This document shows positions 7,762 through 44,536 of a DNA stretch of 64,000 nucleotides, piece after piece. How positions within the stretch are numbered: the first letter of the stretch is position 1; every line of letters begins with the position of its first letter. The notes beneath the pieces are model-generated. The model made no database searches. It saw only the letters and a program-made list of their open reading frames with translations, and was not told where the DNA came from. The stretch is from the NCBI RefSeq assembly GCF_009914755.1, contig NC_060947.1. One strand, given 5' to 3'. The translations under genes were made by a program, and so were the position numbers. The stretch comes from the human T2T-CHM13v2.0 reference genome, Homo sapiens.

Positions 7762-8189
7762 GAGCATCTTATTATTAATTGAAAAATGACTAAAATATAT
7801 TTTTCAAATGGGGTAAAATCATGACACTCATACAGATATGAAATGAACACATGCTAAAAGAAAAAGATGTTATGACTGCTTCAAAAGGGAAACCAAAGAG
7901 TTGATATGGGAATATTCATCAGTAATATTAAATGATTGTGTAAATGGAGGCAAAACTGGTTTCATAAGGTGAAGAACAACCGAACCTCTACTAAAGAATA
8001 TGCTGTACATGTATCAGCAGCCTACAACTAACAAAAGGCTATAAAAGACTTCACAGATAATGTAAGGCTGGAATCAGATAACCTGCAGTGGTGTCCTAAA
8101 GACAGAGCAAAGTTTTCCACTGAAGCACACATTTATTTTTATAATGTCAAAATCAGGTAGAGAGTTATAGTTCCCTCAAAATCAAGGTT

Positions 8190-8345
8190 CAGTCATTAGC
8201 GTGACTAGATCAGTGTCATAGACATTTCTAGGCTGAGGTCTGATAAGGGACCAGTGGACACCAATGAAATCACAAAGTCTAGGGATGTCACAAAGGCAGC
8301 TAGCTCCCTGACCAATAAGGGCCTGGAGCAGAGGGATACAATAGG
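8190..8345 (+). promoter_or_regulatory. H2AP proximal promoter (two CCAAT boxes, ACAAAG motifs, degenerate X-box)
   Basis: CCAAT at 8261 and 8312; alignable to the H2AL3 upstream region at 11700-11845. Confidence 0.6.
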
Positions 8346-8408: not shown

Positions 8409-8783
<375 letters not shown>

Positions 8784-11440: not shown

Positions 11441-11726
11441 TCCTTAAAAATAAGTTCCAGCTACTAGGGCAACCAGGTTCCTCTCAAAAAGAAGTTCCAG
11501 TTACTGGGGTGACCAGGTTCCTCTCAAAAAGAAGTTCCAGTTACTAGGGCAACCAGGTTCCTCTCAAAAAGAAGTTCCAGTTGCTAGGGTGACCAGGTTC
11601 CTCTCAAAAAGAAGCTCCAGTTACTAGGGTGACCAGGTTCCTTTCAAAAAGAAGCTCCGGTTACTGGGGCAACCAGGTCCCTCTCAAAAGGAAGTTCCAG
11701 TTGCTAGGGTGATCAGGTTCCTCTCA
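11441..11726 (+). repeat. 40-bp minisatellite, ~7 copies, in the H2AL3 promoter
   Basis: Unit ctctcaaaaagaagttccagttactagggcaaccaggttc repeats with an exact 40-bp period. Confidence 0.97.
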
Positions 11727-11729
11727 TGG

Positions 11730-11850
11730 GCTTTTCTAGGCTGAGGCCTGATCAGAGCCCAGTGGACACCAATGACATCAAAAAGTGGAGGTTGTCACAA
11801 AGGCAACTCCCTGACCAATGAGGGGCTGGAGCATAGGGATACAGTGGGTG
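11730..11850 (+). promoter_or_regulatory. H2AL3 proximal promoter: CCAAT (11769), CRE-like TGACATCA (11773), ACAAAG, CCAAT (11815)
   Basis: Motifs seen directly; homologous to the H2AP promoter. Confidence 0.6.
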
Positions 11851-11933
11851 GCAATAAGCACTGGTACCTTGAGAGGCTCAGGCCAGCAGGAAAATCAAGC
11901 TGTGCCAATTGGGGCAAAACCCAGCAATTCCTC

Positions 11934-12380
11934 ATGGCTGGAAACAAAATGTTCTGTAGGCCTAGGAGACAACGCCTTTCCCATTCCAGAAGAGCAGAGC
12001 TGCAGTTTCCTGTCAGCCACTTGGAACGCTGCCTGCGAGAAAGTCAGCATGCCCGGCACCTGAGCTCAACCACACCTGTTTTCCTGGCTGGTGTTCTAGA
12101 GTATCTGACAGCCAACATCCTGGAAAAGGTGGGCAAGGAGGTCAAGAACAGCTGCAGGCTGTGCATCACCCCAGAACACGTGAAGAGGGCACTGCAAAAG
12201 GATGAGCAGCTCAGATGGATCTTGGAGTTGGAAGATGACACCCACTCTCAAGTAGAAGAAATGCCCCAATCTGAGGAGGAAGAGGAGGAGGAGGAGGAGA
12301 AGGAGGAGGAGATGGTGGTGCTGGTGGTGATGGGGGGAAGGAGGAGGAGGAGGAGAAGAAGGAGGAGGAAGGATTCCTGA
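11934..12380 (+). CDS. H2AL3: Short histone H2A variant H2A.L3, 148 aa from ATG 11934, intronless (expression status uncertain)
   Basis: Clear H2A fold SRRAELQFPVSHLERCLR...PVFLAGVLEYLTANILE...ITPEHV...KDEQL; ATG 11934 is at the position matching the H2AP ATG. Confidence 0.88.
   Translation: MAGNKMFCRPRRQRLSHSRRAELQFPVSHLERCLRESQHARHLSSTTPVFLAGVLEYLTANILEKVGKEVKNSCRLCITPEHVKRALQKDEQLRWILELEDDTHSQVEEMPQSEEEEEEEEEKEEEMVVLVVMGGRRRRRRRRRRKDS
12273..12371 (+). repeat. (GAG)n/(GTG)n/(AGG)n coding microsatellite
   Basis: Encodes E9KE3-MVVLVVMGG-R10K. Confidence 0.95.
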
Positions 12381-12475
12381 GTTTCGGAGCCATGCGGGAC
12401 TTCATCAGCAACCTCCTCCAGATGCCAAAATTCCCATAGATGAAAGACCCCAGGTTGCTTCCATCTGCCCAAGCT

Positions 12476-12481
12476 ATTAAA
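12476..12481 (+). terminator. Poly(A) signal ATTAAA of H2AL3
   Basis: ~95 nt after the stop; conserved with the H2AP copy; no histone stem-loop seen. Confidence 0.7.
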
Positions 12482-12562
12482 CTGTGTAAATGCATGACAG
12501 TGCTCCTGACTCGTCTCCGTTTCCGTTGCTTTGGGTTGGAGGTGTCTGTGAGACATCAAGGA

Positions 12563-43999: not shown

Positions 44000-44536
44000 T
44001 GTTACTGGAAAGGGGTCCCGATCCAGATCCCAAGAGTGGGTTCCTGGATCTCACACAAGAAGGAATTGGGGGTGAGTCCATAGAGTAAAGTGAAAACAAG
44101 TTTATTAAGAAAGTAAAGGAATAAAAGAATGGCTACTCCATAGGCCGAGCAGCCCCAAGGGCTGTTGGTTGTCCATTTTTATGCTTATTTCTTGATTATA
44201 TGCTAAACAAGGGGTGGATTATTCATGCCTCCCCTTTTTAGATCATACAGGGTAACTTTCTAATGTTGCCATGGCATCTGTAAACTGTCATGGCACTGGT
44301 GGGAGTGTAGCAATGAGGATGACCAGAGGTCACTCTTGTCACCATCTTGGTTTTGCAGCTTCTTCACTGCAGTTTTATCAACAAGGTCTTTATGACCTGT
44401 ACCTTGTGCTGACCTCCTGTCTCATCCTGTGACTTAGAATACTTAACCCTCTGGGAATGCAGCCCAGTAGGTTTCAGCCTCATTTTACCCAGCTCCTATT
44501 TAAGATGGCATTGCTCTGGTTCAAACACCTCTGACA
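44000..44536 (-). mobile_element. MER41 LTR (MER41A-like), 3' LTR of a truncated provirus
   Basis: Minus strand begins TGTCAGAGGTGTTTGAACCAGAGCAA; preceded on the minus strand by a PPT (aagggaaggggaaa). Confidence 0.85.

What the first reader, a model, noticed from the sequence alone, without database searches (positions are those of the whole stretch)
11441..11726. Promoter VNTR that multiplies an RFX X-box seven times in front of H2AL3
Seen: each 40-bp unit contains a 14-bp quasi-palindrome. These are GCTACTAGGGCAAC (11460), GTTACTGGGGTGAC (11500), GTTACTAGGGCAAC (11540), GTTGCTAGGGTGAC (11580), GTTACTAGGGTGAC (11620), GTTACTGGGGCAAC (11660) and GTTGCTAGGGTGAT (11700). The array ends ~45 bp before the first CCAAT. 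The H2AP promoter has one degenerate copy at the same place (GTCATTAGCGTGAC, 8192-8205). Known: the RFX X-box consensus is GTNRCC(N0-3)RGYAAC, and RFX2 is a key spermiogenesis factor that binds the testis H1t promoter. Inference: a copy-number-tunable RFX array may set or silence expression of a histone variant often regarded as inactive in humans.
Basis: partly seen in the sequence, partly recalled or inferred. Interest (0 to 1): 0.8.

Follow-up and report, generated by a model that had tools for sequence, protein, structure and literature searches.

The report
Seven-fold RFX-type site array before H2AL3
A 40-base promoter element in front of the human testis histone gene H2AL3 has been copied seven times in a row, and most copies fit the binding-site pattern of RFX transcription factors, but whether RFX binds there or the copy number matters is untested.

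Summary

On the minus strand, 5 of 7 units match GTNRCCNNRGYAAC with no mismatch and the other 2 with one. These are the only perfect matches in the 64-kb window (0.09 expected).

The array is an in-place amplification of a promoter element that is single-copy in three paralogous promoters. A probable H2AL1Q copy keeps one perfect X-box. H2AP and a broken H2A.L copy carry degenerate ones.

Among same-strand chains of perfect X-boxes spaced up to 67 bp, this is the longest in T2T-CHM13, with 5 sites. The units fit the consensus better than the human H1t X-box does.

The functional reading is unproven:
- No binding data could be consulted.
- Units vary more inside the X-box than outside it.
- Molaro 2018 infers that hominoid H2A.L evolves neutrally.
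- Copy-number polymorphism could not be tested.

Verdict: a real, unusual cluster of RFX-type sites. RFX occupancy is plausible (about 0.5). Copy-number tuning is speculative.

The parts
11446..11726 (.). Tandem array, 7.0 copies of a 40-bp unit. It lies 416 to 136 bp upstream of the annotated H2AL3 TSS at 11862.
   Evidence: TRF: period 40, 87% matches, no indels, score 429. Units listed.
11460..11473 (-). X-box-like 14-mer of unit 1 (minus strand GTTGCCCTAGTAGC). One mismatch to GTNRCCNNRGYAAC. Ideal left half GTTGCC.
11500..11513 (-). X-box consensus, perfect (GTCACCCCAGTAAC), unit 2
11540..11553 (-). X-box consensus, perfect (GTTGCCCTAGTAAC), unit 3. Ideal half-site GTTGCC. The plus strand also fits with 1 mismatch.
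11580..11593 (-). X-box consensus, perfect (GTCACCCTAGCAAC), unit 4
11620..11633 (-). X-box consensus, perfect (GTCACCCTAGTAAC), unit 5. Identical to the single copy in the L004 paralogue.
11660..11673 (-). X-box consensus, perfect (GTTGCCCCAGTAAC), unit 6. Ideal half-site GTTGCC.
11700..11713 (-). X-box-like 14-mer of unit 7 (ATCACCCTAGCAAC), one mismatch
11769..11773 (+). First CCAAT box, conserved in all four paralogous promoters
11794..11807 (+). Proximal X-box-like site GTCACAAAGGCAAC (1 mismatch), between the two CCAAT boxes and 7 bp before the second. Homologous sites: L004 has 1 mismatch; the H2AP copy (GTCACAAAGGCAGC) I count by hand from the alignment at 2 mismatches.
11815..11819 (+). 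Second CCAAT box. It reads CCAGT in L004 and CCAAG in L005.
11862..12494 (+). H2AL3 transcript as annotated by the hub. CDS 11934-12380, 148 aa. Pfam Histone match is below the cut-off (20.6 against 26.4 bits).
   Evidence: hub annotation
8171..8219. Single homologous unit in the H2AP promoter. Its 14-mer at 8192-8205 is degenerate. I count 3 mismatches on the minus strand by hand from the sequence; no scan reported it.

Best explanation
The 281-bp array is an in-place, seven-fold tandem amplification of a 40-bp promoter element. That element is single-copy in the paralogous short-H2A promoters (probable H2AL1Q, probable H2AL1MP, and H2AP). Each unit carries a 14-bp imperfect inverted repeat that fits the RFX X-box consensus. 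The H2AL3 promoter therefore holds a cluster of seven RFX-type sites 416 to 136 bp upstream of the TSS, plus an eighth X-box-like site between two CCAAT boxes.

Shown: the array, its homology to single-copy paralogue elements, the consensus fit, and its rarity in the genome.

Inferred:
(1) The amplification arose by slippage or unequal exchange between the short direct repeats (TTCC..TCA) that flank the core in the single-copy promoters.
(2) It is old, on the order of tens of millions of years, because the units differ by about 11%.
(3) In spermatocytes or round spermatids, dimers of RFX2 (or RFX1/3/4, which share the motif) occupy the sites and act together with the CCAAT boxes, as at the H1t promoter.
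(4) Multiplicity raises local RFX occupancy. Whether that still drives useful expression is doubtful, because hominoid H2A.L looks neutral.
For: - Array.
- Perfect consensus in 5 of 7 units and within 1 mismatch in 7 of 7; these are the only perfect matches in 64 kb (0.09 expected).
- A shuffled unit gives a perfect X-box in only 22 of 200,000 trials.
- The genome search with the array finds only itself and one 48-bp match at a paralogue, so it is not an interspersed repeat.
- The four-promoter alignment shows the unit as a homologous single-copy segment. L004 carries GTCACCCTAGTAAC, a perfect fit.
- Of 18 recalled motif consensuses scanned, only RFX and an overlapping 6-mer MYB site recur in the units.
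- The human H1t promoter's best X-box has 2 mismatches and sits 3 bp before a CCAAT box, so the H2AL3 units fit better than this classic RFX2 target. Horvath 2009 calls the H1t X-box low-affinity (passages).
- Among same-strand pairs of perfect X-boxes up to 67 bp apart, this locus forms the longest chain in the genome (5 sites). Pair counts were 19, 14 and 0 against controls of 2, 0 and 0.
- A synthetic 4x X-box reporter responds to truncated RFX2 (figure legend).
- Mouse H2al3 is expressed in mid-to-late round spermatids (passages).
Against: - No binding or expression data for this locus could be consulted.
- Substitutions among units are denser inside the X-box (12 of 98 cells) than outside it (7 of 182; Fisher p=0.012). 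Without the CA/TG column pair the figures are 6 of 84 against 7 of 182 (p=0.36). The X-box is therefore not the best-conserved part of the unit.
- The first and last units each break an invariant consensus position.
- H2AP, which Molaro 2018 argues is functional, has only a degenerate copy (my hand count: 3 mismatches). The distal X-box is therefore not needed for this gene family in general.
- The perfect fit appears derived. It depends on a T-to-C change shared by H2AL3 and L004 only.
- The four searchable supplements of Kistler 2015 hold no H2al, Hypm or H2afb entry.
Confidence: 0.5

Rival explanations
1. Neutral minisatellite. The element was duplicated by slippage in the promoter of a gene that had lost, or was losing, its function in catarrhine primates. 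The X-box matches are inherited from one ancestral copy. They are not occupied or have no effect, and multiplicity has no role.
For: - Hominoid H2A.L evolves neutrally and no protein is detected. Reviews state that H2A.L is lost in humans.
- There is no excess conservation of the X-box within units.
- 18 of 19 substitutions are transitions, including a CA/TG pair typical of CpG decay.
- The terminal units are degraded.
- Seven matches count as one independent event.
Against: - The single event is still improbable for a prespecified motif (22 of 200,000), and the motif is biologically apt for a testis histone promoter.
- In the 5 internal units, every variable position inside the 14-mer falls on a degenerate consensus position.
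- Three units carry the ideal half-site GTTGCC, which is derived relative to all paralogues.
- RefSeq annotates a transcript starting 136 bp downstream (hub annotation).
Confidence: 0.35
2. The array is a functional cis-element for a different factor. One candidate is A-MYB (MYBL1), through the YAACKG site that overlaps one X-box half. Another is an unidentified factor that reads the better-conserved linker CCAGGTTCCTCTCAAAAAGAAGTTCCAG.
For: - The MYB consensus is present in 5 of 7 units, against 0.35 expected at window density.
- The linker is the least variable part of the unit.
Against: - The MYB consensus is a low-information 6-mer fully nested in the X-box region.
- Kistler 2015 states that A-MYB and RFX motifs and targets largely do not overlap (passage).
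- No recalled consensus among the 18 tried matched the linker. No motif library was available, so this test is weak.
Confidence: 0.1
3. RFX-bound repressive or sponge element. RFX1-type repression, or titration of RFX by the dense cluster, silences H2AL3 or buffers local RFX rather than activating transcription.
For: - Same consensus evidence as the main reading.
- Horvath 2009 notes an inhibitory domain in RFX1 and inactivity of full-length RFX2 on reporters (passages).
- Kistler 2015 finds X-boxes also in genes that go up in the knockout at P21 (passages).
Against: No data on the direction of any effect. This reading also needs RFX occupancy, which is itself unproven.
Confidence: 0.05

Closest known systems
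X-box (TE1 element) of the testis histone H1t (H1-6) promoter, bound by RFX2
   Same: Both are testis-specific histone-variant promoters with an RFX-type inverted repeat containing a CCTAG core close to a CCAAT box. In human H1t the site is ATCACCTAGGCACC, 3 bp before CCAAT. In H2AL3 the proximal site lies 7 bp before the second CCAAT, and the array ends 42 bp before the first.
   Different: H1t has one site with 2 mismatches. H2AL3 has seven distal sites (5 perfect) plus one proximal. RFX2 binding is published for H1t (reference titles and passages) and untested here. H1t is autosomal and pachytene-expressed, whereas H2A.L genes are X-linked and post-meiotic in mouse.
[quoted passage not shown]
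   Same: Head-to-tail multiplication of an X-box upstream of a promoter. It responds to RFX (truncated RFX2) (figure legend).
   Different: It is artificial, has 4 copies, and uses a different X-box sequence and spacing. It shows that the principle works, not that this locus works.
Promoter minisatellites that multiply transcription-factor sites, such as MNS16A at the TERT antisense promoter with GATA1 sites
   Same: A tandem minisatellite in a promoter with one factor site per unit. Promoter activity is reported to depend on copy number (abstract only).
   Different: MNS16A is shown to be polymorphic and functionally tested. For the H2AL3 array neither polymorphism nor function is shown, and the factor family differs.
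MHC class II X-Y promoter module (RFX5 complex plus NF-Y); recalled, with the X-box origin confirmed
   Same: An X-box placed next to a CCAAT (Y) box in a proximal promoter.
   Different: It uses the RFX5/RFXAP/RFXANK complex with strict X-Y spacing and immune expression. It has no tandem amplification. The comparison rests on recall.

Membership tests
RFX X-box cis-element | 13-14 bp imperfect inverted repeat fitting GTNRCC(N0-3)RGYAAC (ideal half-site GTTGCC) | tested here: met
5 of 7 units have 0 mismatches and 2 of 7 have 1 mismatch. The ideal half GTTGCC occurs in 3 units.
RFX X-box cis-element | Position close to the TSS (robust window -500 to +500) | tested here: met
   Sites lie about 402 to 149 bp upstream of the TSS, and the proximal site 68 to 55 bp upstream, relative to the hub-annotated TSS at 11862. 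Window definition.
RFX X-box cis-element | High score with a curated position weight matrix (JASPAR MA0600.1 or MA0509.1) | not testable with these tools
RFX X-box cis-element | Occupancy by an RFX protein (EMSA, ChIP) | not testable with these tools
   No ChIP tracks. The Kistler 2015 supplements (4 files) list no short-H2A gene.
RFX X-box cis-element | Conservation of the site in related promoters | tested here: inconclusive
   Perfect in 2 of 4 human paralogous promoters (H2AL3, L004). L005 has 2 mismatches. I count 3 in H2AP by hand (sequence, alignment). Orthologues in other species could not be fetched.
VNTR (copy-number-polymorphic minisatellite) | Head-to-tail array with a unit of 7 bp or more | tested here: met
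   40 bp x 7.0
VNTR (copy-number-polymorphic minisatellite) | Copy number varies among individuals | not testable with these tools
   Only one X haplotype (T2T-CHM13) is held. Unit divergence of 11.4% argues against rapid turnover but does not settle the question.
Interspersed repeat or transposon-derived tandem repeat | Many dispersed copies of the unit in the genome | tested here: not met
   The whole-genome DNA search found 2 places: the array itself and the paralogue promoter. The tool warns that very common words are skipped.
Promoter VNTR that tunes expression through factor-site number | Promoter output depends on copy number | not testable with these tools
   Needs reporter assays or expression data by genotype.

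The most novel reading that the evidence does not exclude
A primate-lineage amplification turned one ancestral promoter X-box into the longest chain of perfect-consensus RFX sites in the human genome. This RFX landing pad keeps a histone-variant gene that is presumed dead transcribed in spermatids, or titrates RFX locally. Residual copy-number differences between individuals or ape species would then set H2AL3 output. That would make H2AL3 versus H2AL1Q (7 units against 1) a natural experiment on site multiplicity.
Probability: 0.12. Interest if true: 0.65.

Novelty: new member of a known kind. Interest (0 to 1): 0.42.

Why it matters
What drives the testis- and stage-specific transcription of short H2A variants is not known. 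A 2020 review states that no study has examined how their promoters evolved.

This locus offers a concrete, testable candidate: an RFX-type element shared by the H2A.L promoters, present once in H2AL1Q and seven times in H2AL3. If RFX binds, several things follow:
- The short H2A genes would be linked to the RFX2 spermiogenesis programme.
- The X-box plus CCAAT layout of H1t would extend to a second class of testis histones.
- The paralogue pair would give a natural dosage series for clusters of identical sites.

If RFX does not bind, the locus is a clean example of how a decaying promoter can mimic a dense factor-site cluster.

My searches found no paper linking RFX to these promoters. 'H2AL3' gave 13 papers. 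'RFX2' with 'H2al' gave 1 paper, which makes no link. The X-box / tandem repeat / VNTR search listed 15 of 729 papers, none on an RFX array.

Tried and rejected
- **Two-sequence MAFFT alignment of the H2AP and H2AL3 upstream regions.** It misaligned the array against non-homologous upstream DNA. I replaced it with an alignment of four promoters in which the array was collapsed to its last unit.
- **Interspersed-repeat origin.** Rejected: only 2 genomic matches.
- **Other factor motifs.** I scanned 18 recalled consensuses, including CRE, NF-Y, SOX, ETS, HSE, nuclear-receptor half-site, E-box, GATA, STAT, IRF, YY1 and SP1. None recurs per unit except RFX and MYB. The HSE-like GAAGTTC I noticed by eye has the wrong spacing (0 hits).
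- **H2AB promoter (L022).** It keeps the flanks (AAGTTCC, GGGTCACCAG) but has no X-box within 2 mismatches at that place.
- **Mouse RFX2 targets.** No short-H2A names in the 4 searchable Kistler 2015 supplements.
- **Three-site genome patterns.** I used two-site patterns and chained the hits.
- **PWM scan.** Not done, because no matrix was available.
- **Orthologous primate or mouse promoters.** No collection on hand holds them.
- **Pfam check of the genes.** H2AL3 matches Histone below the cut-off, L004 matches above it, and H2AP has no match.

Full report

Yes. Tandem Repeats Finder reports a single array at 11446-11726 with period 40, 7.0 copies, 87% matches, no indels and score 429. The first CCAAT box (11769-11773) follows the array by 42 bp. 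Relative to the hub-annotated TSS at 11862, the array spans 416 to 136 bp upstream.

**2. The X-box match**

On the minus strand, five consecutive units (11500, 11540, 11580, 11620, 11660) fit with no mismatch. The first and last units fit with one mismatch.

- These five are the only perfect matches in the 64-kb window. The expectation is 0.09, and 0 of 100 shuffles reached 5.
- At up to 1 mismatch there are 14 matches against 3.22 expected.
- One of those is an eighth site, GTCACAAAGGCAAC at 11794-11807. It lies between the two CCAAT boxes.

Because the units are copies, the array counts as one event. A shuffled 40-bp unit of the same composition contains a perfect X-box in 22 of 200,000 trials.

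I scanned 18 recalled factor consensuses. Only RFX (full site and half-sites) and a MYB 6-mer nested in the same region recur per unit. MYB occurs in 5 of 7 units.

**3. Where the array came from**

A whole-genome search with the 281-bp array finds only itself and one 48-bp match about 1.08 Mb away on the X chromosome. That match lies in the promoter of an intact H2A.L paralogue. The paralogue is 82% identical in protein. It is probably H2AL1Q, judging from its intact frame and the Xp21.1 listing.

I aligned four promoters:
- H2AL3, with the array collapsed to its last unit;
- the H2AL1Q-like paralogue (L004);
- a broken paralogue with two TAG stops (L005, probably H2AL1MP);
- H2AP.

The alignment shows the 40-bp unit as a homologous, single-copy segment in all of them. 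Promoter identities to H2AL3 are 0.81, 0.77 and 0.70.

In the single-copy promoters the core is flanked by short imperfect direct repeats (TTCC..TCA). The H2AL3 array begins and ends within that motif (read by eye). This is the layout expected if slippage or unequal exchange between the flanking repeats produced the 40-bp period. That step is inference.

The fit of the 14-mer differs among the paralogues:
- L004 carries GTCACCCTAGTAAC, a perfect X-box identical to unit 5.
- L005 has 2 mismatches.
- H2AP has 3 by my hand count from the sequence.

The perfect fit depends on a T-to-C change shared only by H2AL3 and L004, so it looks derived rather than ancestral. The H2AB promoter keeps the flanks but has no X-box.

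**4. Age and constraint**

- Units differ pairwise by 11.4% on average, or 9.0% without the CA/TG column pair.
- There are 19 substitutions against the consensus in 280 sites, and 18 of them are transitions.
- With a recalled neutral rate near 1e-9 per site per year, this suggests an amplification tens of millions of years old. This is a rough inference. It argues against a highly mutable array.
- Substitutions are denser inside the X-box (12 of 98 cells) than outside it (7 of 182; Fisher p=0.012). Without the CA/TG pair the figures are 6 of 84 against 7 of 182 (p=0.36). The X-box is therefore not the most protected part of the unit.
- In favour of function, every variable position within the five internal 14-mers falls on a degenerate consensus position. 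Three units have also acquired the ideal half-site GTTGCC, which no paralogue has.

These two lines of evidence pull in opposite directions, and neither is decisive with seven 40-bp units.

**5. Comparison with a validated target and with the rest of the genome**

I located the human H1t gene through a Pfam linker-histone search of the genome. I identified it from its translated ORF; the identification is by recall of the protein and its map position. Its promoter's best X-box is ATCACCTAGGCACC, with 2 mismatches, sitting 3 bp before the CCAAT box. All seven H2AL3 units fit the consensus better than this classic RFX2 target. Horvath 2009 itself calls the H1t X-box low-affinity (passages).

Genome-wide counts of same-strand pairs of perfect X-boxes:

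| Gap between sites | Matches | Control (pattern read backwards) |
|---|---|---|
| 0-5 bp | 0 | 0 |
| 6-36 bp | 19 | 2 |
| 37-67 bp | 14 | 0 |

Chaining these hits gives only three loci with three or more sites:
- H2AL3, with 5 sites;
- a 21-bp x 4.4 array on chromosome 1, with 4 sites;
- a non-repetitive triple on chromosome 5.

Under this definition the H2AL3 array is the longest chain of perfect X-boxes in T2T-CHM13.

**6. What the literature says**

[quoted passage not shown] The paper notes long 3' extensions and the absence of H2A.L protein in human sperm.
- Later reviews state that H2A.L is lost in humans (passages).
- The nomenclature paper keeps H2AL3 as a gene because its frame is intact (passages).
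- RFX2 knockouts arrest spermiogenesis. RFX2 ChIP peaks carry a standard 14-bp X-box close to the TSS (passages).
- RFX1-3 share indistinguishable motifs (passages), so the sequence cannot say which RFX would bind.
- Mouse H2al3 is expressed in mid-to-late round spermatids (passages).
- The four searchable supplements of Kistler 2015 contain no H2al, Hypm or H2afb entry. They contain no Hist1h1t either, so the negative is weak.
- A 2020 review says promoter evolution of short H2A genes has not been studied.
- My searches found no paper linking RFX to these promoters or describing a natural tandem X-box array (15 of 729 papers listed).

**7. Verdict**

The structure is real and statistically unusual. 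It is correctly read as a multiplication of an RFX-type site in a testis histone-variant promoter.

I put RFX occupancy at about 0.5. The main rival is a neutral minisatellite in a decaying promoter, at about 0.35. Another factor, or a repressive role, takes the remainder.

The words 'VNTR' and 'copy-number-tunable' are not supported by anything I could test.

In kind, this is a new member of known classes: X-box promoters such as H1t, and promoter minisatellites that multiply factor sites, such as MNS16A (abstract). Interest is moderate. The locus gives a clean, cheap set of experiments on an unstudied promoter family, but the gene it fronts is probably non-functional in humans.

Noticed in passing
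L037 1492-1583 (G000:C1:21026181-21026272 approx.): A 21-bp x 4.4 tandem array (98% matches) on chromosome 1. Each unit carries a perfect X-box consensus, GTAACCATAGCAAC. It is the only other tandem array in the genome with three or more chained perfect X-boxes. The gene context was not determined.
   Followed up: partly
G000:C5:150826680-150826803 (L043): Three perfect X-box consensus sites within 124 bp that are not a tandem repeat. Several are palindromic enough to match on both strands. It looks like a natural multi-X-box regulatory region. The gene was not identified.
   Followed up: no
window 12273-12369: The 3' part of the H2AL3 coding region is a GAG/GGA trinucleotide array (TRF period 3, 32.7 copies). 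It encodes an acidic and then a basic low-complexity tail. The L004 paralogue has a longer version. This matches the '3' extensions' that Molaro 2018 lists as atypical.
   Followed up: partly
L004 1390-1400 region; window 11815-11819: The second CCAAT box of the H2AL3 promoter reads CCAGT in the probable H2AL1Q promoter and CCAAG in L005. Only H2AL3 and H2AP keep both CCAAT boxes.
   Followed up: no
window 11446-11726: 18 of 19 substitutions among the units are transitions. Unit columns 25-26 alternate CA and TG (units 1, 3, 6 against 2, 4, 5, 7). Since all paralogues have TG, the CA form probably arose through a CpG intermediate and then spread by duplication of two-unit blocks.
   Followed up: partly
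window 44265-44278: A near-perfect palindromic X-box, GTTGCCATGGCATC (1 mismatch on either strand), deep in the SYTL5 intron.
   Followed up: no
window 8430-8783 and 11934-12380: The H2AP protein gives no Pfam match at E<=0.01. H2AL3 matches Pfam Histone only below the gathering score (20.6 against 26.4 bits). The L004 paralogue passes (33.6 bits).
   Followed up: yes
window 11446-11726 against the hub mask list: The 281-bp array is not among the 20 longest stretches NCBI masks as repeats, although that list goes down to 173 bp. It is apparently unmasked in NCBI's file.
   Followed up: no
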